DNA of 64,000 nucleotides. It comes from Ostreococcus lucimarinus (Eukaryota). The DNA is taken from NCBI GenBank assembly GCA_000092065.1, contig CP000597.1; one strand, 5' to 3'. Position 1 is the first letter of the stretch, and each line of letters begins with the position of its first letter. Positions 2,887 to 52,806 of the stretch are shown piece by piece. The translations under genes were made by a program, and so were the position numbers. The notes below the pieces were generated by a model. The model did not search any database, was not told the DNA's origin, and saw only the letters and a program-made list of their open reading frames with translations.

Positions 2887-4379
2887 ATGATGGCGACGCC
2901 GCGCGAGCTCGACGCGCCGAGCGCGGGCTCGCCCGCGCGCGACGACGGCGCGAAAGATTTTCGTCGAACCGAATCCGTCGACGGCGAGGCCATCGCGCGC
3001 GAGCGCGCGCACTCGTTCAGCACGCAGTGCTCGTCGCAGACGACGATCGCGGACTTGGGCCAGGGGCGCGACGACGACGACGACCGCGTCGAGGACGAAC
3101 GCGTCGCGTTCGACGTCGCGCGCGATCGCGACGCGCGCGCGATCGACGAACGGGCGGAGAGAGAAACGCGCGATGCGATGGTAGCGCTCGCGCGCGCGCG
3201 CGCGGACGCGATCGGGCCGGACGGCGCGGATTTATGCGCCGACGTCGCGCGCGAGCTCCTGCGGCGCGAGCGCGCGGATCACGGGGCGTTCGTGTTGGAC
3301 GGCGCGACGGCGCATCACGCGGCGTACCGGGCGCAGTTGGTGGAGTGGATTTTGGACGTGTGCGCGGGGGAGCGGTACGGGCCGACGACGGCGGACGTCG
3401 CGATCGGATACATGGTGCGTGGACGATGCGATGCGACGCGATCAACTGTCTCGCCTCCTGGCTGGCTGATTCCGGGGGAGGGGGCCAGGGGCGATCTTGA
3501 TCTTATCTTCGCCGCGACCGACCGCGATGTTCGGACGAACGGCGAAAAAAATAAAACGTCGGAAACGATTCGAAACGCACGAACGCGCGCGATGGGGACG
3601 ATGGCGAACGATTGAACGAACGACTGACGACGAACGCGGACGCGACGAATGCGCAGGATCGAGTGTTGTCGAAAACCGTGGTGCCGAAGACGTCTTTACA
3701 TCTCGTCGCGCTGTGCTGCTTGCAGATTGCGGTGAAATACGAAGAGATTGAGGAACGTGTGCCGACGATGGCGAAACTTCGCGCGTGGACGTCGAACATG
3801 TACTCGCCGGATATCATTCAAAAGATGGAGTTGGCGGTGTTGATCGAGCTCAAATGGGAGCTCGGCATTCTGACGCCGGCGCACTTTTTGGAATCTTTCT
3901 TGACCATGATGAACGGTGGGACGACGAGCGAGGACGAAGTGGACGTCGGTGTGTGGACGCCGCAGTATCAAGAGGAGTTGAGACATTTGGTGTGTCAAAT
4001 GTACTCGTTGTGCGTGCAAGACGTGAGCTTGGCCAACGAGCTGCCGTCGCGCGTCGCCGCCGCCGTCATCGCAGCGTCGAGGTTGAACTTGGGCATCAAG
4101 CCCTTGTGTCCACCGACGCTCCGAGTTGCGGCGAACGTGACACCGCAGCAAATCTATCCTCTCGTGACGCACATGCACAGAATGTGGGAAGAAGCGTACG
4201 AAGACGACGAGACGACGATGATGGAAGCCGACGTCAAGGCCCACGCGGATTTCAACTCGCTCGCCATCGCCATTCCGCAACAAGAAGGTGTGGTGTATGC
4301 CGATAAACCCGGGTTCGAGCAGCGCATCACTGAAAACGCATCGCCGACGTGTCCGTTGGATATGCAGTGGGACGAATGA
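2887..4379 (+). CDS. D-type cyclin (cyclin N- and C-terminal folds), two exons: 2887..3414 and 3657..4379
   Basis: Two ORF-track ORFs (2068..3615 and 3612..4379) each carry half of a cyclin box. YRAQLVEWILDVCAGE...AIGYM ends exon 1 and DRVLSKTVVPKTSLHLVALCCLQIAVKYEE...ELKWELGILTPAHFLESFL starts exon 2. Joining them at GT (3415) / AG (3656) restores the conserved ...YMDRVLS... (cf. NYLDRFLS in cyclin D). The start is taken at ATG 2887 (MMATPRELD...) because the upstream part of ORF 2068 is Arg-rich low-complexity sequence. Confidence 0.8.
3415..3656 (+). other. spliceosomal intron (242 nt, phase 0) in the cyclin gene, GTGCGT...GCGCAG
   Basis: The cyclin box is interrupted by in-frame stops. 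Canonical GT/AG at these positions restores frame and conserved motif. Confidence 0.75.
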
Positions 4380-9872: not shown

Positions 9873-12800
9873 TTAGTTGCCGCGGCGCTGAGCGCCGCGG
9901 AAACCGCCGCCGCGATCGCCGCGATCGTAATCGGCGTCGCGACGGCGGAACTGACGCTGGCGAAACGCGTCTCGCTCGTCGAGGATGCGGAATAAACCGC
10001 CCACGGCGTCGACGATGTTTTCGCTGGCGTCCGGAAGTGGTTTGCGAGGAGCCATGACTTTGAAAGCCAGCGCGGCATCGATCTCGCGACGGACGTCGGT
10101 GAGTAGATCCATGGTATCGGCGCACTGCGAATCGATGACGATCCAGTCGTCGAGCATGGCTCGGTGAGAGGTGGTTCGCTTGTCGCCGTCATCAGACGCG
10201 CCATCGGCGTCGCTCGACGACGCGAGTTCGCCGGATTCGTTCAATAGTCCCGCTTCGGGCGCCTTCGATGCCGTGGCGGCGTCATCACCATCCAGAAAGT
10301 CTCGCTTGGAGAGCTCGTGACCGCCGAGGAGCATGAGCTGCTCGGGGCGCATCGCCGTGACGTCTCGCAAGAACACTTGCGAGCTGAGCATCATCTCTCG
10401 ATACAAGAACCATCGAGGAAGAGGCGTGCGGTCGCGCGGTGGTTTGCGATGGAAAGCTACGCTCGAGGGGTGTAATCCGGCGTGGTCCTCGGTGCGCGTT
10501 CGCAGGGTGCCAAAGTTGCCAAACTGCCGCCGAGCCGCGATGTTCCCGGGGAGTCCTGCCGCCCAAACCGCGGTGAAGAGCGATTCGTTGGCGGCGTTAT
10601 AGTTCACCGATGCATCGTATCGCAGCGTCTTCTTACTCATCGATCGCCCGTCCAAATCGTAATCTTGAACCAATCCGATACGGTTTAGCTCGTGCAAGAG
10701 CTGCGAGCGAACCGAAGTGATGGTGTTCAAAGCGGCGATGGATATGAAATTATCGCTCGCCCAACGCCGAGCGCCGTCCCAGCCTTGATCGTACTGGATA
10801 GTCTGGAACGCATCGTACGCGCGAACAGTGGCGAGTAAATCTGAAGTCGCGCAGAACGATTGTCTGATTTGCCGCGCCTCGTCTCGCATCCCCGGAGGGA
10901 CGTAAAACGGATCCCGAGAGCTGAAACACGCCGCAGCGGTGAGCACTGGATCGAGACATTTCATCACTGCTCCCATGATGAGCATCCGTCCAGTCCCAGG
11001 ATCGAGCGGGAGGATGGACAGCAATCGTCCCATGGGCGTGAGGACTTCGCCTCCAGACGCCTCGTTCGTCTTGATGGCGCCGAGTTTAAAAAGCCTATCC
11101 ATCGCATACTCCACAGTCTCGTCCGACGGAGGGTCCATGGCTTTGGACAAGAAGTGTTGTACTCCGGTGTTGGTCATCGAGCACGTCTGCAAACAAGTCG
11201 CTTCGAGCGCCGTGCGCTGGATCTCTGGCGTCGGTCGTTCCGCCATGGCGTGCAGAGTACCGTGAGAATATATTCGGTAGCACGATCCAGGGGCGACACG
11301 TCCAGCGCGACCGGTTCGTTGTGTCGCGCTTGCGCGCGACGTTCCGACCGTGCCCATCGTCGACATTCCGCTCTCGGCGTTCCAAGACATCTCTCGTACC
11401 AGACCGCTGTCCACCACGGCGAGCACGTCGTTGATGGTGACAGAAGATTCGGCAATGTTCGTCGCTAATATGACCTTCACCACGCCATCTGGCGCCGGTA
11501 TGAACACTTTTTGTTGCTCTTCTTGAGGAATCGTCGAATGAAGTGGTATAACGTTCAACTTCTCGTAAAGCTCGGGGTCGGTGGTCTCCTCCAGTATCGC
11601 CATCGCCGACTTTATCTCATCCCAACCGGGTAGGAAGCACAAGATACTACCCTTACGTCCGGCGTCGGTTTCGATAGCCGCGACGTGTTTAGCGACTTCG
11701 GCGAGGAGTTGAATCGTGAGTTCGCTCACTTCCTTCGTTTCGTTCGCGCCGAATCGCTTACCAGCTCCACTCTTGCCCATGGACGACTCGCCCGTGCGCG
11801 CGTCGCGCATAGCCACCGCTCGACGAAGAGCACGCACGCGAGACGACGCTCGCATGCGACGAGGTGACATTCCTCGATTATTTTCGACGTCTTCCAACTT
11901 CATCGCCATGTCTTCGAGCGCAGGGTCGACGTCGTCGACGTCGTCGTCGTCATCGTCGACATCGTCTTCGTCCTCAGACACTTCCACTTCCACCTGCTCG
12001 TCCTCCGCCGCCGATATGCGCTCAAGTTGCTGCGCAGCGATTTCTTCGGCTTCGGCTTCCTCGAGTTCGCGCTGCAACGCGCGATCCTGCGCCGCGAGCA
12101 AATCTTTCGCAAGCTTTTTCAATCGACTTGGGATTTCTCGCTTACGAGCGTTGAATTCCTCCTCGCTTACAAGACTTTCATCTTCGACTTCGAGCTCGCC
12201 TCCACCGTCTAGCATATCCTCGAGGTGGACGATCTCTACAGGCCATCGCGGTTTCGTCGGTACGCTCATCAAAGGTACCTTTTCCTGCGTATCTTCACCC
12301 GCAAAGTAGTCACTGAACGATTCCGCGTCGAGCGTCGCGCTCATCAAAACGACTCGCAAATCCGGTCGAGTGGTGATGAGTTCGCGGAGCAAGACGAGCA
12401 GAAAGTCGGTGTTAATGTCGCGCTCGTGAACTTCGTCGATCATAACGTGCGAGATACCTTCCAAATTTTGATCTCTCATGAGTCTGCGAAGTAAAACCCC
12501 GGTCGTGACGAATTCAATGTTCGCCGCGTCGCGCGGTGAATTACCGTGTAATCGCACGGCGAAACCCACCGAGTTCCCAATCGGTTCGTCGCGCTCCGCC
12601 GCGACGCGCTCAGCGACAGATATCGCGGCGATACGTCGTGGTTGGGTGACGATAATGCGCGTGTTCGGCCCTTCGCCTTGTTGGATGGCGTCTTCTAAGA
12701 TGTACTGCGGACACTGGGTCGATTTCCCGCTCCCCGTGCCTCCGCTCACGACGACCACTTGATGTGTTTGCAACGCTTTCACGAGATCTTCGCGAATGGC

Positions 12801-14498
12801 TTTGATGGGCAGCGCATCGCGAATTCTCTTCATCTCTGCTTGAGGGCTTTGCTCGTTCTCGACGGCTCTTCGCAATCGCTTTGCCTCTTCCTCGGCGTAT
12901 TCGCTATTCTCCGCCGCAACGCGTTCCGCCGCACGCGACTCGCGCGCAGCCTTGAGTATTTCTTCCGCTTTCGACGGTCCATCGGAGCTTTTACGCCATT
13001 TTGACTCTTGTCGCGCCGAAAACTTGGCCTCAAACTCCGCTTGTAATTCCACTAGCTCAGACATTCTACCGTCGTGTTCCTCGGGCGAACCCATGGCCTC
13101 GACGAGAATATCGATTCCTTTATCCGGTAACGCGGGCATTGACATCATTGATACGTGATTCGCAGGCGAGGCGTCGATGATTCGATTCAACTCTTCGAGC
13201 CGCCTCTCGCCGACGACAGCGGCGAGCGGTTCGCGGACCGCGTTGATTATTGCCTCGGCTTCGCTCGATGCTTTACTCGCACCTTTCCCACTTCCCTCGA
13301 GCTTCTTCCCACCATCAACGAGCATGCTAACTTCAGTGACGAAATTTCGCTGCTTTTGCGACGTCACCATGGACGGTCGCGTCGAATTCAGCATTTCCAA
13401 GAGCATCTGCGCCCTGTTCTTCTTCGCCTGTTGCGACTCCTTCGCTCGCTCCATGAGCATCTTACGCACGTCCGGTGGATCTTTGGGATTGATCCCGCAC
13501 TGCGTGAACTGTTCGTACAAATCTATCAGCGCCAGCGCCTGCGACTCTTTCTTCCCGAACGCCACCCCCGTGTTGACGAGTTCCACCGCGTCGTCCTCCA
13601 TCGCCGTCGCGTCCGCGGGCGTCGGTTGAATCGCCCCGTGCGGCACCACCGTCCTCACCGTCGTGATGAACGTCTGATCGTGCGCCGGTCCGTTCATCGT
13701 CGTCGACATTCTTTGCTTAAACAGCATTTTCATAGCCGCCTTGTGTAAAATATTCCGTACGTTCTGCCCGTCGACGCCGAGTCGCTCCTTGACGCCCTTC
13801 GCGAGTTGCCGCGTCATGATCGCTCGTCCGTTTTCCCCGTGCGTCACCACCGCCGCGGGCGGCGCTTTACTCGATCGTTTCCCTCCCCCTCTCGACTTCG
13901 TTCGCGCGTCCTCGCGTCCCTGCCGCCCCCCTCGTCCTCCCCGTCCGCCCCGTCCGCCGCGTCCTCCGCGCCCTCGTCCCCCGCCTCGCCCTCGACCGCC
14001 TCGCCCTCGACGCTCATCCCTCCCGCCGCCCTCCTCCGCGCGCGCCGCCGTCGCCGTCGCTTTCGCGCGCCCTTCCTTCGTCGCCCACGCGCCGTCGCGC
14101 GCGTTCCCGCGTCCCGGCGCGTTCGCGCGCGCGTCGCCGCTCGCGCGTCGCGTCCCGCCCGCGTCGCCGCTCGCGCGCGCGCGCGCCGTCGTCGTCGCGC
14201 GCGCCGCGGCGAATCGATCGAGCGCGTTCCGGACGCTTCTCGCGCTTCCCGCGCGCGCGACGACCGCGCACGCGCCGAGCGCGCGCCTCGGCGTCGCGCA
14301 CGCCGCCGGCGCGCGCGCGTCGACGCGCGCGCGCGCGCGCGCCGTCGCCGCGACGCGCATCGCCGCCAGCGCGCTCCGGCGCATGCGACCGCGGCGCGCT
14401 CGGGTCGACGCCGCCGGCGCGCGTCGCGCGCGTGTGCGGCGCCGAGGCGCGCGCGCGCGCGCGGCGCGCGGCCGCGCGGCGATGTCGCGTATGCGCAT
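9873..14498 (-). CDS. DEAH-box ATP-dependent RNA helicase (DHX36/DHX57-like) with RGG/Gly-Arg-rich tracts at both termini
   Basis: Uninterrupted 4.6 kb ORF. Helicase motifs GGTGSGKSTQ (I), DEVHER (II), MSATLD (III), FLPGWDEI, ATNIAESSVTI, QRTGRAGR (VI). N-terminal (GRGG)n and C-terminal RGDRGGGFRG. The first ~150 codons are Ala/Arg-rich, so the real start may be downstream of 14498. Confidence 0.8.
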   Translation of the reverse strand: MRIRDIAARPRAARARAPRRRTRARRAPAASTRARRGRMRRSALAAMRVAATARARARVDARAPAACATPRRALGACAVVARAGSARSVRNALDRFAAARATTTARARASGDAGGTRRASGDARANAPGRGNARDGAWATKEGRAKATATAARAEEGGGRDERRGRGGRGRGGGRGRGGRGGRGGRGGRGGRQGREDARTKSRGGGKRSSKAPPAAVVTHGENGRAIMTRQLAKGVKERLGVDGQNVRNILHKAAMKMLFKQRMSTTMNGPAHDQTFITTVRTVVPHGAIQPTPADATAMEDDAVELVNTGVAFGKKESQALALIDLYEQFTQCGINPKDPPDVRKMLMERAKESQQAKKNRAQMLLEMLNSTRPSMVTSQKQRNFVTEVSMLVDGGKKLEGSGKGASKASSEAEAIINAVREPLAAVVGERRLEELNRIIDASPANHVSMMSMPALPDKGIDILVEAMGSPEEHDGRMSELVELQAEFEAKFSARQESKWRKSSDGPSKAEEILKAARESRAAERVAAENSEYAEEEAKRLRRAVENEQSPQAEMKRIRDALPIKAIREDLVKALQTHQVVVVSGGTGSGKSTQCPQYILEDAIQQGEGPNTRIIVTQPRRIAAISVAERVAAERDEPIGNSVGFAVRLHGNSPRDAANIEFVTTGVLLRRLMRDQNLEGISHVMIDEVHERDINTDFLLVLLRELITTRPDLRVVLMSATLDAESFSDYFAGEDTQEKVPLMSVPTKPRWPVEIVHLEDMLDGGGELEVEDESLVSEEEFNARKREIPSRLKKLAKDLLAAQDRALQRELEEAEAEEIAAQQLERISAAEDEQVEVEVSEDEDDVDDDDDDVDDVDPALEDMAMKLEDVENNRGMSPRRMRASSRVRALRRAVAMRDARTGESSMGKSGAGKRFGANETKEVSELTIQLLAEVAKHVAAIETDAGRKGSILCFLPGWDEIKSAMAILEETTDPELYEKLNVIPLHSTIPQEEQQKVFIPAPDGVVKVILATNIAESSVTINDVLAVVDSGLVREMSWNAESGMSTMGTVGTSRASATQRTGRAGRVAPGSCYRIYSHGTLHAMAERPTPEIQRTALEATCLQTCSMTNTGVQHFLSKAMDPPSDETVEYAMDRLFKLGAIKTNEASGGEVLTPMGRLLSILPLDPGTGRMLIMGAVMKCLDPVLTAAACFSSRDPFYVPPGMRDEARQIRQSFCATSDLLATVRAYDAFQTIQYDQGWDGARRWASDNFISIAALNTITSVRSQLLHELNRIGLVQDYDLDGRSMSKKTLRYDASVNYNAANESLFTAVWAAGLPGNIAARRQFGNFGTLRTRTEDHAGLHPSSVAFHRKPPRDRTPLPRWFLYREMMLSSQVFLRDVTAMRPEQLMLLGGHELSKRDFLDGDDAATASKAPEAGLLNESGELASSSDADGASDDGDKRTTSHRAMLDDWIVIDSQCADTMDLLTDVRREIDAALAFKVMAPRKPLPDASENIVDAVGGLFRILDERDAFRQRQFRRRDADYDRGDRGGGFRGAQRRGN

Positions 14499-14835
14499 AC
14501 AGCGCGCGGTTGGTTTTCACGGTCGCGTCGCCCCCGATGCGGTTTACGTGCGCTTTGAAGGGTGCTCGATGTCCGATGAAAGTGCGCGGTGTGACGATAT
14601 ATGCGATGTTCGGACAAACGGCGCGCGCGCGCCGCGATTCGACGATTCGACGATTGGACGACGGGACGCGCGCGACGCGATCGTGATGATAAGTACGCGT
14701 TCGTCGTCGGTTACAACGCGAATAAAACGCGACGCCTCGAGGCGTCGCGCGTCGACGCGGGCGCGCGACGACGACGGCGGCGCGACGAGCGCGCGCGAGC
14801 GGCGCGACGAGCGCGCCGGTCGCGATGGACGGCGA

Positions 14836-15157
14836 GGCGGCGCTTACATGCCGGCAGCCTTGCGCTCTTCCTCCATCTTCTTCGCGGCGGCGGCGCGACG
14901 GGCTTGGATTTCCTTCTCCTCGGCCGCGTTCTTCGCGCGAAGCTCCTCGGGAGAGAGCGTCTTCTCGTCGGAGCCTTCGTAGGCGTTCCAGTTGGACTTG
15001 CCGGCGACGGAATCCTTGAATCCGGCGCTGCGAGCGGACGACGCGACGACGACGGCGCGCGCTTCGTCAGTCTTCCGCGGTTCGAATTTTTTCGCGTCGT
15101 CGCGACGTCGTCGAACCCTCGCGCCCGTCCTCGCGCGATTTCGACGACGCCGTCCTC
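14836..15157 (-). CDS. 3' coding exon of an unannotated small protein (...SAGFKDSVAGKSNWNAYEGSDEKTLSPEELRAKNAAEEKEIQARRAAAAKKMEEERKAAGM*). It has no in-frame ATG, so it is probably preceded by an intron
   Basis: The minus-strand frame ending at TAA (revcomp of 14836-14838) has near-uniform G/C at third positions from about 15070 to the stop. The overlapping listed ORF 14711..15457 is in another frame and is Arg/Pro-rich junk. An in-frame TGA lies at 15158-15160. Confidence 0.3.
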
Positions 15158-15941
15158 GTCATCCTCGTCATCCTCGTCAGCATCGTCGACGTCGCCGCGG
15201 CGTCGTCGCCGCGACGTCGACGACGAGAAAATTTCCCTCGCGACGCCCCTCGACCCGCCCTCGCGCGCGTCGCGCCGCCGTATTTCTCCCGTGCCGACGC
15301 GCGTCGCGTCGCGTTCGCCCGCGCGTCGCGCGCGCGCCCGCGCGCGCGCGCGCGCGTAACGCATAGGGGGGCCCATCGCGCGAAATCGCGCGTCGCGTCG
15401 TCGCGGCGTCCCGCGTCGCGCGACCTCGCGTCGCGTCGCGCGTCGCTCGAGACGCACCGCGCGGAGACGTTGCGCTTGAATTGCGCCGGCGCGTTCGCGC
15501 GAACGGCCGCGGAGGAGGTGACGAGGGCAAACATCGTGTCGGAGCGCGTGCGTGTGTGTCGCGCGGGGTCGACGCGCGCGCGCTGGATAAGGATAAACCC
15601 TTGTATTTTTTCGCGAAAATCGGGTATGTTCGTCGCGTTTTCGGGTGACGGGCGTCGGTTACGCGTAATTAGCCATTTCGGCGCTAATATACGTGTCGTT
15701 TCCATGTGATTAGGCGTTTCGGCGGTCGTATACGTGCCGGTCGCGTGCATCCCGCGTGATGCGCCGTTTCGGCGCTCGTATGCGTGTGAATTCCATGTGA
15801 TTAGGCGTTTCGGGGCTCGTGTACGCGTCAGCGCCGCGCGCGGGTGCGATTCGGCCGTTGCGCGGTCGCGCGCGGTCGCGCGCGCACATCGCGACGCCGC
15901 GACGCCGCGCGAAACGCGTCGCGCGCGACGCGAGCGTCGCC

Positions 15942-18371
15942 ATGCGCGCGGACGATCCCGACGCCGACGCGTGCCTGTCCGACGGCGCGCGCGCGCGCGT
16001 GGACGCGCGACGCGCGCTCGCGGACGCCGAGAGGGGAACCGACGCGCGACGCGCGACGCGACGGCCGCGGACGCTCGCGCGCGTCGATCGCGACGACGGG
16101 CGAGGCGCGAGGGCGAGCGAGACGATCGCGGACGTCGACGGCCGACGACGGGCGATCGAAGCGAGCGTCAGGCGGGAGTACGAGCGAGCGCTGCGACGAC
16201 GCGCGGCGCGGTGCGAGACGCTCGAGCGCGAGGGCGAGGCGCGCGAGCGAGCGACGCGCGAGCTCGAGGCGCGACGCGCGGCGGAGGCGGAGAGGTTGAG
16301 GACGGAGTTGGAGGCGCGGACGGAGGAGCTGGCGCGCGCGAGAGGAGAGGGCGAGGAGATGGCGAAGGTGAAGGCGCGGGCGGAGGCGGAGGCGGAGACG
16401 CGCGCGCGCGCCGAGGCGGAGAACGAGACGCTGCGACGGCGGTGTGAGGAGGCGTGCGCGAGCGAAAAGAGCGCGAGGGAAAGCTTGGAAGAGCGCACGC
16501 GCGAGCTCGAGCGTTTGGCGAGCGCGATGGAGGCGGTGAAGGCGGATGCGACGCGAGCGAGGACGGCGAGCGAAAAGGCGAGCGAGCGGTGCGCCGAGCA
16601 AGAGGCGCGCGTATTTCGAGCGGTGCGTGCGGCGGAGAGAATGAAGCAGCGCGTCGAGGAAGCGGAACAACGCGCCAGTCGTGCGCAACGCGCTATGGCG
16701 TCGAGCGATGAGTCCAACGCGGCGCACAGTTGCGAGCTCGTCGAGCGTGCGAAGAGAGAAATCACCGACGCGCGTCGGCGAAACGAAGATTTGGAAACTC
16801 GTCTGACGCAGACGACGAGCGAGTTGGAGGCGTTGAGAGAAAAACTCGGTCCGGACATGGAGCGTGCGCGGTTAGAGGGTGCGCAATCCTATCGCGTTCG
16901 CATCGAGGCTCTGACGACCGCGCGAGACGACCTTCAACGCGAAGTCGAGGCGAGGCAGAGCAAAATCGACGAGCTCGAACGCGCCGACGCCAAAGCGCGC
17001 GCGCGGTACGACGAACTCAGGCGTGGAGCGGAGTTTAAGATTCAGACTCTCGAGCAACGCTGCGCGAACGCCGAGCGGCGCGTGTTGGAGAAGGAGGCGA
17101 GCGTGCGCGTGGCTGCGACGGCGCGCGACGCGGCTGAGCGACGGTGCGAAGAGCACGAAAAGATTCTCGAGAAGTCGTCGTCGCAAGACGTCGTCATCAC
17201 TTCTTTGCTCGCTAAGCTCGAGCAACGCGTGTGCGAGCTGTATGCCAAAGCCGACAGCGCGGCAAAGCTCATGCAAACGCAGCGTAAAGGAGACGCGACA
17301 AAAATGGCAAAGTTGCAGGCTCGCGTTCGCGCGGCGAGACGCGCGCGAGACGCCGCGAAGACGCGAGCGTCGCGACTCGTTCGAGAAAATGAAGAGTCCT
17401 TGATGCGCATTGGAATCATGGAAGTTCAATTGAAAGATGCCGAGCGTATGATCGAGAACGCCAACCGCGAGTGGTTGGCGGAATGTAGACGTCGCGAAAC
17501 CGCGGAGAGCGTCTCGTCCCGCGCCGAGGACGAACTCGGGGAGATCAGAGCGAAGATGAACGCGCTCGAGAGCGACAGAGCGGTGGTGCAGCGCGAAAAC
17601 CAAAAGTCATACGCCATGGCGCTCGAGCAAAACGTTCACGCCGAGGAGCGCATCGCTGAATTGACGAGTCAACTGGAGGCTTTGAAGTCGGACCTTGCCG
17701 CCGCTTCGGAAGCGTTGGCGGCGGCTCAAGTGGACGTGAATGCGGCGACAACCCGCGAGCAGTCGCTTCGCTGGAAATCTCAGGAGTTGGAGTCGTCGAA
17801 CGCCAACCTTCAGCGCGCGATCGACGAGCAGCGCGCCGCAATCGACGAACGCGACGGCGTCGAAGCCACCTTGGCCAAGCGAGAGGAAGAGCTCGCCAAC
17901 GCCGAGGCGCGCTCAGCTCGACTCGACTGTGAGCTCACGGATGCGAAGATCGACGCGCGACGCGCGAAAGAGGCGATGGCAAAAATGCAAAGCGAGTTGG
18001 ACGCGCTGCGAGCCCAGAGACCGGCGTCATCGCTCTCGAGCGAGCTCGCCGTCGTCGAGGCGATTCGCCGCGACCTTGCCACCCCCGAACCCGCGAAGAC
18101 AGTTCCAGGCGCGCTCGCACTGAGCCCCGACCAAGTTCAGCCATCATCCACGACGGCGACGACGACGACGACGATCATCGTCGACGCACCGCCGGAACAG
18201 AAGGAACAGACTCGGTCGACGCAACCGTCGCCCGCGCGTCGCGCGCGACGCCGCGCCAATCCGTTCGCCGACAAGGAGAACCCCGACGCCTCTCCCAAGC
18301 TCACCGCCGTCCCTCGCCGACAACACACCAACGCCCCTCTGTCCCCGTTATCACTCCTAGGCGTGCGATAA
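15942..18371 (+). CDS. long coiled-coil protein (Glu/Ala/Arg/Leu-rich heptads over ~700 aa) with a C-terminal KEN motif (ANPFADKENPDA); hypothetical
   Basis: 2.5 kb ORF with G/C-biased third positions. Start chosen at MRADDPDADA (ATG 15942); ORF-track start 15819 is also possible. Confidence 0.55.
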   Translation: MRADDPDADACLSDGARARVDARRALADAERGTDARRATRRPRTLARVDRDDGRGARASETIADVDGRRRAIEASVRREYERALRRRAARCETLEREGEARERATRELEARRAAEAERLRTELEARTEELARARGEGEEMAKVKARAEAEAETRARAEAENETLRRRCEEACASEKSARESLEERTRELERLASAMEAVKADATRARTASEKASERCAEQEARVFRAVRAAERMKQRVEEAEQRASRAQRAMASSDESNAAHSCELVERAKREITDARRRNEDLETRLTQTTSELEALREKLGPDMERARLEGAQSYRVRIEALTTARDDLQREVEARQSKIDELERADAKARARYDELRRGAEFKIQTLEQRCANAERRVLEKEASVRVAATARDAAERRCEEHEKILEKSSSQDVVITSLLAKLEQRVCELYAKADSAAKLMQTQRKGDATKMAKLQARVRAARRARDAAKTRASRLVRENEESLMRIGIMEVQLKDAERMIENANREWLAECRRRETAESVSSRAEDELGEIRAKMNALESDRAVVQRENQKSYAMALEQNVHAEERIAELTSQLEALKSDLAAASEALAAAQVDVNAATTREQSLRWKSQELESSNANLQRAIDEQRAAIDERDGVEATLAKREEELANAEARSARLDCELTDAKIDARRAKEAMAKMQSELDALRAQRPASSLSSELAVVEAIRRDLATPEPAKTVPGALALSPDQVQPSSTTATTTTTIIVDAPPEQKEQTRSTQPSPARRARRRANPFADKENPDASPKLTAVPRRQHTNAPLSPLSLLGVR

Positions 18372-51651: not shown

Positions 51652-51716
51652 GATTGCGTGCGTGTGGATTAGTGCGGCGCGCGCGCCGCGCGCGCGCGTC
51701 GGGGCGGCGCGAGGTG

Positions 51717-51731
51717 CCGAATGTCCGAATC
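51717..51731 (+). promoter_or_regulatory. copy of the recurrent motif CCGAATGTCCGAATC, ~185 bp upstream of rbcS copy B ATG, in the shared divergent promoter of rbcS A/B
   Basis: direct reading. The same 13-mer core occurs at 6899, 56041 and 58426, all on the + strand. Confidence 0.4.
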
Positions 51732-51914
51732 ACGATCGCCCGCCCCTTAAAACGTATTCCAATCGTCTCTACAACTATATGATTTCGATTTTGACGGGAT
51801 AATCTCGACGAGATAAATTCGAGCGCGCGTTTTCGCGCGAATCGTGTGGATTTGCTGACTCGGTGCCGATCACGCGAGGGCGTCGGCACTTTCCAGCACG
51901 CTTATCTCGAAATC

Positions 51915-52806
51915 ATGTCCGCCATCACCCAAGCCTCCGCGCAAGTCGCGAAGACCGTCGCCGTCACCACCGGCAAGGTCGCCAACGCCAAGTCCATGAT
52001 GATCTGGCGCCCGCACGGCAACAAGTACGTGAACGCGCGCGCGCGACGGGACGCGAACGTAATCCGAAAAAGCGACGCGCGCGGATTGCTCGGCCGGTCG
52101 TGAAGAAGGGGTCTTCGAGGGGCGCGCGAGGGCGTCGTGACGCGCGCGATGAATGAAAAAGATGCCTGAAGTTTTTATGCATCGGATCGTCAGCGCGCGG
52201 TGGGCGTCGCGCGTCGACGCGAGCGTCGGCACGGGGTTCGAGTGAGCCCCCCCAGGGGGGAGGCCTCCGAGATCCATCGTAACCGCCTTCGGAGATTTCT
52301 TCTTTAATTTTCCTCGCGACGCGTGGTTGCGCGTTGAAATCGACGGAAAACGATGCACAGAATAATTACTGACCCGATTTCGCTTCGTTTTTACGTCGTC
52401 ACGCAGGATGTTCGAGACCTTCTCCTTCTTGCCGCCGCTCTCCGACGCTGAAATCTCCAAGCAAGTGCAATACTTGTTGAACAACGGCTGGACCCCGTGC
52501 ATCGAGTTCGAAGACTCCGCGCACGCGTACACCGACGGCCACGGCTGGGCGAACATGGACACCTCCATCAACGCCGGTTACTACGACAACCGTTACTGGG
52601 TTATGTGGAAGCTCCCCATGTACGGCTGCCAAAACCCGGATGAAGTCATTGCGGAAATCAACACCTGCATCAAGTGCTTCCCGGATTGCTACGTCCGCGT
52701 CGCTGGCTTCGACAACATCAAGCAAGTGCAATGCTCCGCGTTCTTGGCTCACCGCCCGGCGTCCGAAGCTGCGTGCGCCGTTGACCAGCGCCAAGTCCAA
52801 GGGTAA
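51915..52806 (+). CDS. rbcS: RuBisCO small subunit, copy B (exon 1 51915..52024, intron 52025..52406, exon 2 52407..52806)
   Basis: Same exon sequences as copy A (one Glu/Asp difference in exon 2), GTACGT donor, CACGCAG acceptor. Confidence 0.9.

What the first reader, a model, noticed from the sequence alone, without database searches (positions are those of the whole stretch)
14836..15157. Strongly codon-biased small ORF with no start codon, hidden under an Arg-rich artefact ORF: probably the last exon of an unannotated spliced gene
On the minus strand, the frame ending at TAA (revcomp of 14836-14838) has near-uniform G/C third positions for ~75 codons and encodes a plausible Lys/Glu-rich tail (...SAGFKDSVAGKSNWNAYEGSDEKTLSPEELRAKNAAEEKEIQARRAAAAKKMEEERKAAGM). 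It lacks any in-frame ATG; a TGA lies upstream at 15158-15160. The ORF track instead reports an overlapping 248-aa Arg/Pro-rich ORF in another frame, which looks non-coding. An upstream exon with the start codon is likely spliced onto an acceptor near 15070-15085 (AG at ...CGGAAG|ACTGACGAAG|CGCG).
Basis: seen in the sequence. Interest (0 to 1): 0.55.

Follow-up and report, generated by a model that had tools for sequence, protein, structure and literature searches.

The report
Annotated two-exon Ostreococcus small-protein gene

Summary
On the minus strand an open frame runs 15158..14844 (stop TAA 14846-14844, not 14838-14836). It has no usable ATG, and its last 60 codons have GC3 0.83.

It is exon 2 of a two-exon gene:
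- Exon 1: 15534..15458 (MFALVTSSAAVRANAPAQFKRNVSA + 2 nt).
- Intron: 430 nt, phase 2, 15457..15028. Donor GTGCGT, exact branch motif GACTGACG 39 nt before the 3' end, acceptor CAG.
- Exon 2: 15027..14844.

The spliced product is 100% identical over its full 86 aa to XP_001422258.1 / A4S9Z6, "predicted protein [Ostreococcus lucimarinus CCE9901]". The gene is therefore already annotated.

Supporting evidence:
- Full-length cDNA contigs of the O. tauri orthologue remove the intron at the same position.
- Relatives keep the exons far better than the intron.
- Intron length varies by non-multiples of 3.
- Substitutions concentrate at third codon positions.
- The 248-aa Arg-rich ORF runs from the donor's GTG to the TAA of a TGTAA motif and is broken in relatives.

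The protein family appears confined to Mamiellales-like picoalgae. It has no Pfam, NCBIfam or PDB relative. It looks like a cleavable organelle-targeting presequence followed by a 60-aa disordered hydrophilic protein with one long helix. Low interest.

The parts
15458..15534 (-). Exon 1 coding part (ATG 15534-15532; 77 nt). It encodes MFALVTSSAAVRANAPAQFKRNVSA plus the first 2 nt of Arg26, and is the putative organelle-targeting presequence.
   Evidence: joined to exon 2 it gives an uninterrupted 86-aa CDS; 100% identity and coverage to XP_001422258.1. GC3 0.88. 97-100% identical in close relatives.
15028..15457 (-). Spliceosomal intron, 430 nt, phase 2, GT-AG (GTGCGTCT...CGCTCGCAG), 73% GC.
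   Evidence: Its length varies (427/429/430/431/442 nt in O. lucimarinus-like contigs, 257 nt in O. tauri) while the spliced frame is kept. 74-97% identity where exon 2 is 95-100%. The orthologous intron is removed in O. tauri cDNA contigs.
15452..15457 (-). 5' splice site GTGCGT.
   Evidence: Matches 6 of 7 positions of the published O. lucimarinus non-chromosome-2 consensus GTGCGTG (PMC2483917). Identical in 8 related loci.
15065..15072 (-). Branch-point motif GACTGACG (branch A at 15067, 39 nt before the intron's last base).
   Evidence: position. PMC2483917: 87% of EST-confirmed non-chr2 O. lucimarinus introns hold ACTGAC and 66.5% hold GACTGACG. CTGAC sits at the same 39-nt distance in all O. 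lucimarinus-like loci and at 48 nt in O. tauri.
15028..15030 (-). 3' splice site CAG.
   Evidence: Same ...CGCAG|CGCCGG junction as in O. tauri, where cDNA contigs prove its use.
14844..15027 (-). Exon 2 coding part (last nt of Arg26, 60 codons AGFKDS...KAAGM, stop TAA 14846-14844). This is the mature protein.
   Evidence: 95-100% nucleotide identity in relatives. Differences from O. tauri by codon position are 5/5/23.
14711..14715 (-). TGTAA, a likely polyadenylation signal in the 3' UTR (inferred).
   Evidence: sequence TTGTAACC. In the O. tauri cDNA contigs the poly(A) tail starts 29 nt after the same TTGTAACC. That UGUAA is the green-algal poly(A) signal is from my own knowledge of Chlamydomonas.
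14711..15457 (-). 248-aa Arg/Pro-rich ORF: a non-coding artefact. It spans the intron, exon 2 in the wrong frame, and the 3' UTR.
   Evidence: Its GTG start is the GT of the splice donor and its TAA is that of the TGTAA motif. The frame stays open for only 52-204 codons in six close relatives and 146 in O. tauri; it is intact (247) only in L007.

Best explanation
The window is nuclear DNA of Ostreococcus lucimarinus CCE9901. The finding is exon 2 of a small two-exon protein-coding gene on the minus strand, already in GenBank as XP_001422258.1 ('predicted protein', 86 aa).

Gene structure (shown). The 77-nt exon 1 (15534..15458) encodes a 26-residue presequence. A 430-nt U2-type intron (15457..15028) carries the species-typical signals: donor GTGCGT, branch GACTGACG, acceptor CAG. 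It is spliced out in phase 2. Exon 2 (15027..14844) encodes the remaining 60 residues.

Transcript ends (inferred). By analogy with the O. tauri cDNA, transcription probably starts a few tens of nt upstream of the ATG and ends about 30 nt after the TGTAA at 14715-14711.

Protein (inferred, not shown). The presequence has no acidic residue, four basic ones, and is rich in Ala/Ser/Thr/Val. It evolves faster than the rest of the protein. It most likely directs the protein into an organelle, plastid more likely than mitochondrion, and is removed near ...VSAR|AGF, which is exactly at the exon junction. The mature ~6.6-kDa protein is hydrophilic (GRAVY -1.1). It has a disordered head with a near-invariant motif (S-N-W-N-x-Y-E-G; W, N, E and G are invariant) and a conserved [ST]-x-E-E stretch, followed by a ~30-residue charged Ala/Lys/Glu helix. 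It probably acts by binding a partner rather than as an enzyme. The strong G/C-ending codon bias and the assembly of full-length cDNAs from ocean metatranscriptomes suggest high expression.
For: - Identity and annotation: the spliced model has 100% identity and 100% coverage to XP_001422258.1 / A4S9Z6.
- Frame: 77 nt + 184 nt = 261 nt = 86 codons plus the stop, with no internal stop.
- Splice signals: donor GTGCGT and an exact GACTGACG 39 nt from the 3' end match the published O. lucimarinus consensus GTGCGTG / GACTGACG (PMC2483917).
- A second textbook intron with the same signals lies at 3415-3656 in the window.
- Transcript evidence in the orthologue: two Tara cDNA contigs carry a 5' SMART oligo and a poly(A) tail. 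They match the O. tauri genome exactly except that the 257-nt GTACGT...CGCAG intron is removed at the same codon.
- Selection on the exons: exons 95-100% identical against intron 74-97% and flanks 70-97%. Intron length differs by non-multiples of 3.
- Substitutions against O. tauri in the mature part fall 5/5/23 by codon position.
- A phase-2 intron at the end of the presequence is present in 9 loci, including low-GC (41-48%) relatives.
- Protein features: composition and pI; conserved columns; AlphaFold gives mean pLDDT 60, with helix 52-83 and the rest coil.
- GC3 is 0.83-0.88, against 0.65 and 0.73 in the two neighbouring genes.
Against: - No transcript of this exact locus could be examined. 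The JGI metagenome scan returned only genomic contigs, and the exact-sequence look-up found no contig on record for P0001.
- Two other in-frame AGs (giving introns of 328 or 340 nt) could in principle yield 116-120-aa isoforms.
- Targeting and cleavage are inferred from composition only. No localisation predictor or experiment was available.
- No family, fold or literature supports any biochemical role.
- The link from codon bias to expression level is an inference.
Confidence: 0.9

Rival explanations
1. Alternative 3' splice sites or intron retention: the same exon 1 is joined to an upstream in-frame AG (intron of 328 or 340 nt). This would give 116-120-aa isoforms carrying an Arg-rich insert. 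Alternatively the intron is retained, and translation stops at the TGA inside the branch motif (15069-15067).
For: One search lists two further AGs that keep the frame open. A CTGAC lies 47 or 59 nt upstream of them. The 227-aa ORF 15067..15750 shows what an unspliced mRNA would encode.
Against: - The insert is not conserved. The intron part of the frame has no codon-position contrast (0.73/0.68/0.64).
- Relatives carry frame-breaking indels in the intron.
- The O. tauri cDNA uses the distal CAG.
- The GenBank model uses the distal site.
- The exact GACTGACG lies downstream of those AGs.
Confidence: 0.05
2. The exon-2 frame is a stand-alone unspliced gene, translated from a non-ATG or upstream start within the open frame. 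Prokaryote-style gene callers modelled it this way in metagenomes (for example P0003, 96 aa).
For: The frame is open for 104 codons. Automated calls of this kind exist in ENA, JGI and Logan data (P0003, P0005, P0008, P0010).
Against: - There is no ATG, GTG, TTG or CTG in frame upstream of the conserved part.
- The N-terminal extensions of those calls are unrelated to each other.
- Conservation and codon bias stop exactly at the acceptor.
- cDNA shows splicing in O. tauri.
Confidence: 0.02
3. The 248-aa Arg/Pro-rich ORF (14711..15457, minus strand) is the real gene, and the Lys/Glu-rich frame is the by-product.
For: It is the longest ORF over the interval in a mechanical ORF list.
Against: - It starts at the GTG of the splice donor and ends at the TAA of the TGTAA motif.
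- It is cut to 52-204 codons in six close relatives and 146 in O. tauri; only L007 keeps it (247).
- Substitutions follow the other frame's third positions.
- Arg-rich ORFs in all frames are the expected by-product of 72% GC, CG-rich DNA.
Confidence: 0.01

Closest known systems
GenBank XP_001422258.1 / ABP00575.1 / UniProt A4S9Z6, 'predicted protein' of Ostreococcus lucimarinus CCE9901
   Same: Identical over all 86 residues, so it has the same two exons and the same splice junction.
   Different: Nothing differs. It is this gene. The record carries no function or domain.
Ostreococcus tauri XP_022839572.1 / CEF98971.1 / A0A090M444, 'unnamed product'
   Same: 78% identical and the same length (86 aa). 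It has a phase-2 intron at the same codon and the same ...CGCAG|CGCCGG acceptor. Splicing, the 5' end and the poly(A) site are documented by two cDNA contigs.
   Different: The intron is 257 nt with donor GTACGT. The genomic neighbours differ: none of the ORFs in the 4 kb on either side has a match in this 64-kb window.
Canonical O. lucimarinus non-chromosome-2 spliceosomal introns (Irimia & Roy 2008, PMC2483917)
   Same: Donor GTGCGT(G), extended branch motif GACTGACG, AG acceptor a few tens of nt downstream.
   Different: Position +7 of the donor is C instead of G. At 430 nt the intron is more than twice the species mean of 187-188 nt (PMC2367439).
Nuclear-encoded small organellar proteins with a cleavable N-terminal presequence, with an intron separating the presequence from the mature part
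   Same: The N-terminal 26 residues have no acidic residue and are basic and hydroxylated. They diverge faster than the mature part, and the exon boundary falls at the presumed cleavage region.
   Different: Import and cleavage were not tested. No homology to any named plastid or mitochondrial protein was found.

Membership tests
U2-type GT-AG spliceosomal intron of the O. lucimarinus non-chromosome-2 class | 5' splice site close to GTGCGTG | tested here: met
   GTGCGTC at 15457-15451, 6 of 7 positions. Consensus from PMC2483917.
U2-type GT-AG spliceosomal intron of the O. lucimarinus non-chromosome-2 class | Branch motif ACTGAC / GACTGACG near the 3' end, followed by an AG | tested here: met
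   Exact GACTGACG at 15072-15065. The branch A is 39 nt from the 3' end, and the intron ends in CAG. The 8-mer alone is not rarer than chance in 64 kb (3 found, 4.4 expected). Its position and strand are what count.
U2-type GT-AG spliceosomal intron of the O. lucimarinus non-chromosome-2 class | Removal restores one reading frame across conserved exons | tested here: met
   The 86-codon CDS has no internal stop. The same holds in 9 related loci.
U2-type GT-AG spliceosomal intron of the O. lucimarinus non-chromosome-2 class | Spliced transcripts observed | tested here: inconclusive
   Shown for the O. tauri orthologue by two cDNA contigs. No transcript sequence of the O. lucimarinus locus was reachable.
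A4S9Z6 / A0A090M444 orthologue group (uncharacterised small protein of Mamiellales-like algae) | Full-length sequence similarity, including the near-invariant S-N-W-N-x-Y-E-G motif (W, N, E, G invariant) and the A-R-R-A helix segment | tested here: met
   100% identity to A4S9Z6 and 78% to the O. tauri protein. Conserved columns. 25 profile hits (E<=0.001) in 1.84 billion representatives; 21 are small family-like proteins and the other 4 are long repeat proteins I judge spurious.
Organelle-targeting presequence (chloroplast transit peptide or mitochondrial presequence) | N-terminal stretch with no acidic residues, net positive charge, rich in Ala/Ser/Thr, less conserved than the mature part | tested here: met
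   26 aa with K+R 4, D+E 0, Ala 7, S+T 4. 14 of 26 residues are shared with O. tauri, against 53 of 60 in the mature part (from the alignment).
Organelle-targeting presequence (chloroplast transit peptide or mitochondrial presequence) | Import into the organelle and cleavage | not testable with these tools
   No localisation predictor or experimental data were available.
Mitochondrial ATPase inhibitor IF1 (Pfam PF04568), considered because of similar size and a presequence + disordered head + long charged helix layout | Match to the family profile | tested here: not met
   No Pfam hit at E<=10 for the query. IATP is not among the weak hits of any of 16 family members.
LEA / hydrophilin-type proteins, considered because of composition | Match to an LEA or hydrophilin profile | tested here: not met
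   No such Pfam family appears among the hits of 16 members at E<=10.
Introner elements (repetitive introns of Micromonas; PMC4540971 listed, features from my own knowledge) | Many near-identical intron copies in the genome | tested here: not met
   Within the 64-kb window the intron matches only short low-complexity CG-rich stretches. The whole genome was not searched.

The most novel reading that the evidence does not exclude
The protein founds a lineage-restricted family (Ostreococcus clades plus lower-GC Mamiellales-like picoalgae) of highly expressed, organelle-targeted, intrinsically disordered mini-proteins with a near-invariant SNWNxYEG motif. Its role, for example as a binding partner of a plastid complex, is entirely unknown. 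The gene has kept a phase-2 intron exactly at the presequence/mature junction while moving to different genomic neighbourhoods in different Ostreococcus clades. In the searches made here, only the O. lucimarinus and O. tauri entries carried a source name; all other family members were unnamed environmental calls.
Probability: 0.4. Interest if true: 0.3.

Novelty: already known. Interest (0 to 1): 0.1.

Why it matters
It matters little beyond quality control. The case shows that a start-less, codon-biased frame beneath a long GC-driven ORF is a reliable sign of a downstream exon in this compact algal genome. It also shows that the species' strict splice signals (GTGCGT...GACTGACG...AG) allow the intron to be placed by eye.

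The gene model has been public since the 2007 genome annotation. The only open question is what this small, conserved, apparently well-expressed picoalgal protein does. That is a modest question and is experimentally tractable in O. tauri.

Tried and rejected
1. Both are out of frame with exon 1, and they overlap or lie 5 nt after the branch motif. Rejected.
2. Function by homology. Pfam, NCBIfam and PDB sequences with a family profile (best E 0.43) gave nothing consistent.
3. Exhaustive profile search of 1.84 billion representatives. It found only the family itself plus four long repeat proteins. The three whose sequences I read (P0043, P0047, P0048) share a 'KS[LI]xLKxxWNSYQGLG' repeat with the 'KSNWNAYEG' motif, which I judge a chance resemblance; the fourth (P0044) was not inspected.
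4. AlphaFold gave pLDDT 60 with a single helix. I did not run fold searches because a low-confidence single-helix model gives meaningless matches.
5. A non-coding RNA hosted in the unusually long intron. An Rfam E-value scan of 14400-16000 gave only hits far below gathering scores.
6. A viral copy of the gene. None in IMG/VR.
7. Spliced O. lucimarinus transcripts in JGI metagenome contigs. The 27 loci were all matched through one exon only (26 through exon 2, one through exon 1) and none spanned the junction. The exact-sequence look-up of P0001 returned nothing.
8. Literature searches by accession and by peptide motif gave no papers.
9. An introner-like repeated intron. No further copies in the window.

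Full report
**What is in the sequence**

The window is GC-rich (55-72% per 2 kb). Mechanical ORF listing gives overlapping Arg-rich ORFs in all frames.

A TGA at 15161-15159 bounds it upstream. The quoted peptide is exact.

The frame has no ATG before codon 95 of 104 and no GTG, TTG or CTG at all.

The codon-position signal is real but shorter than stated:
- The last 60 codons have GC 0.63/0.47/0.83 at positions 1/2/3.
- The 44 codons upstream in the same frame are flat at 0.73/0.68/0.64.

Only 130 of 4256 sampled 60-codon windows in the 64 kb show a comparable contrast.

**The gene model**

Reading upstream on the same strand, an ATG at 15534-15532 opens MFALVTSSAAVRANAPAQFKRNVSA followed by CG|GTGCGT. 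Downstream...CGCTCGCAG|C GCC GGA TTC precedes the conserved peptide.

Joining 15534..15458 (77 nt) to 15027..14844 (184 nt) gives a 261-nt CDS of 86 codons plus the stop, with no internal stop. The intron (15457..15028) is 430 nt, phase 2 and GT-AG.

**It is already annotated**

The 86-aa product is 100% identical over 100% of its length to 'predicted protein [Ostreococcus lucimarinus CCE9901]' (XP_001422258.1, ABP00575.1, UniProt A4S9Z6). So the window is O. lucimarinus nuclear DNA, and the public annotation uses exactly this splice junction.

Its inference of a spliced gene is right.

**Splice signals**

Irimia & Roy (PMC2483917) studied EST-confirmed O. lucimarinus introns outside chromosome 2:
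- The 5' consensus is the atypical GTGCGTG.
- 87% contain ACTGAC.
- 66.5% contain the extended GACTGACG.

This intron starts GTGCGTC. It holds an exact GACTGACG at 15072-15065, with the branch A 39 nt from the intron's last base.

The 8-mer by itself is not rarer than chance in 64 kb (3 found, 4.4 expected). What is informative is its strand and its position before the frame-restoring CAG.

The two AGs in it give exon lengths incompatible with the phase of exon 1, and one lies only 5 nt after the branch A.

A second intron with the same anatomy lies at 3415-3656 on the plus strand (ATG|GTGCGTG...GACTGACG-27 nt-CAG). This shows these are the signals in use in this genome region.

**Transcript evidence from the orthologue**

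The O. tauri protein (XP_022839572.1, 78% identical, 86 aa) is encoded at L001:4001-4518 with a 257-nt intron (GTACGT...CGCAG) at the same codon.

Two independent ENA contigs (L002, L003) begin with the SMART template-switch oligo and end in poly(A). They match the O. tauri genome base for base, except that exactly this intron is missing. They also place:
- the mRNA 5' end about 30 nt upstream of the ATG;
- the poly(A) site 29 nt after a TTGTAACC.

The same TTGTAACC occurs in the window, with its TGTAA at 14715-14711.

**Comparative evidence at this locus**

The JGI metagenome scan returned 27 loci, none spanning the splice junction: 26 were matched through exon 2 and one through exon 1.

| Segment | Close relatives of the window | More distant O. 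lucimarinus-like lineage (L014/L015) |
|---|---|---|
| Exons | 97-100% | exon 2 95%, exon 1 82% |
| Intron | 94-98% | 74% |
| Flanks | 84-100% | 70-72% |

(All.)

Further points:
- Intron lengths are 427, 429, 430, 431 and 442 nt, so they differ by non-multiples of three. The spliced product stays 86 aa, and donor, branch distance and acceptor are unchanged.
- Against O. tauri, differences in the mature part fall 5/5/23 on codon positions 1/2/3.
- A phase-2 intron ending the presequence (donor GT[GA]CG, CTRAC 27-48 nt before the chosen AG in eight of the nine) is recovered in nine loci. These include contigs with 41-48% GC, which I take to be other Mamiellales.

**The Arg-rich ORF**

The 248-aa ORF (14711..15457) starts at the GTG that is the splice donor and stops at the TAA of the TGTAA motif. 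The frame stays open for only 52-204 codons in six close relatives and 146 in O. tauri; it is intact (247) only in L007.

**The protein**

No family or literature match was found:
- Pfam, NCBIfam and PDB show no relative.
- No paper mentions the accessions or the motif.
- No viral copy exists in IMG/VR.
- An exhaustive profile search found 25 hits. They are the family itself plus four long repeat proteins; the three I inspected share a short repeat motif, which I regard as a chance match.
- In the two cluster look-ups, only the O. lucimarinus and O. tauri entries carry names; the other members looked up are unnamed environmental calls.

Sequence features:
- The 26 N-terminal residues lack acidic residues, carry four basic ones and are Ala/Ser/Thr/Val-rich.
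- They share 14 of 26 residues with O. tauri, against 53 of 60 for the rest.
- The mature 60 residues are hydrophilic (6.6 kDa, pI 6.6, GRAVY -1.1).
- W39, N40, E43, G44, E54, A57 and A68 are invariant across 16 members.
- AlphaFold gives low confidence (pLDDT 60), with one helix at 52-83 and coil elsewhere.

From this I infer, without proof, a cleavable organelle-targeting presequence (plastid more likely than mitochondrion) encoded by exon 1. The mature product would be a small, mostly disordered binding protein encoded by exon 2.

GC3 of 0.83-0.88, against 0.65 and 0.73 in the neighbouring genes, together with the assembly of full-length cDNAs from ocean samples, suggests high expression. 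[quoted passage not shown]

At 430 nt the intron is over twice the species mean of 187-188 nt. It hosts no recognisable RNA and is not a repeated element within the window.

**Verdict**

This is an ordinary gene that is already annotated, so interest is low. The residual curiosity is the unknown role of a small picoalgal protein family.

Noticed in passing
window 15662-15825: There is a tandem duplication in the intergenic region between this gene and the divergently oriented coiled-coil ORF (15819..18371, plus strand). Two 73-nt copies are 82% identical and 91 nt apart. Each holds CGCCGAAACGCCTAATCACATGGAA (two matches with at most 1 mismatch; none expected by chance). A 22-nt core of the motif occurs once each in three O. 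lucimarinus-like metagenome contigs. It is possibly a shared promoter element.
   Followed up: partly
window 3415-3656 (+): A textbook O. lucimarinus intron sits immediately after an ATG: acATG|GTGCGTGG ... GACTGACG (3622-3629) ... GCGCAG|gatcg, 242 nt. The gene it belongs to was not examined. A further candidate (GTGCGTGT...ACTGAC...CACGCAG) lies at 51658-52406 on the plus strand.
   Followed up: partly
L001 (O. tauri chr 9), L005 (third Ostreococcus-like clade) versus window 1-64000: The small gene sits in different neighbourhoods in different clades. The O. tauri copy is flanked by CS-domain, WW, JmjC, RFC and epimerase genes. The L005 copy is flanked by SNAP, proteasome ATPase, GHMP kinase, DUF1995 and SDR genes. 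None of these has a tblastn match anywhere in the 64-kb window, whereas O. lucimarinus-like contigs keep the DEAH-helicase neighbour. The intron is retained in all, so any relocation was at the DNA level.
   Followed up: partly
L004 (Logan ERR15133913 contig, 1071 nt), gene at 377-643: This is an intron-less copy of the L005-type gene (P0007, 88 aa). Its 3' flank matches the L005 genome. Its 376-nt 5' flank is AT-rich and unrelated to L005. It could be an RNA-seq assembly chimera, or a genuine intron-less or relocated copy.
   Followed up: no
window 14711-14715 (-) and L001/L002: TTGTAACC lies in the 3' UTR of both the O. lucimarinus and O. tauri genes. In O. tauri cDNA the poly(A) tail starts 29 nt after TGTAA. 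This suggests that the Chlamydomonas-type UGUAA poly(A) signal is used in Ostreococcus too.
   Followed up: partly
window 9873-14498 (-): The 1541-aa ORF downstream on the same strand looks like a DEAH/RHA-type helicase, judged by eye from GSGKST and DEVHERD motifs in its translation; no profile search was run. Its first ~230 codons are Arg/Ala-rich, with a run of RGG/RGRGG repeats at about residues 170-215, in 72% GC DNA. The mechanical ATG at 14498 is probably not the true start, and part of that stretch may be 5' UTR or intergenic.
   Followed up: no
window 15148-15183 (within the intron): There is a short 9-nt tandem repeat (CGTCATCCT x3-4 on the plus strand, which reads GAGGATGAC on the gene strand) inside the intron (family D16). 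A second CTGAC sits next to it, 149 nt from the 3' splice site.
   Followed up: no
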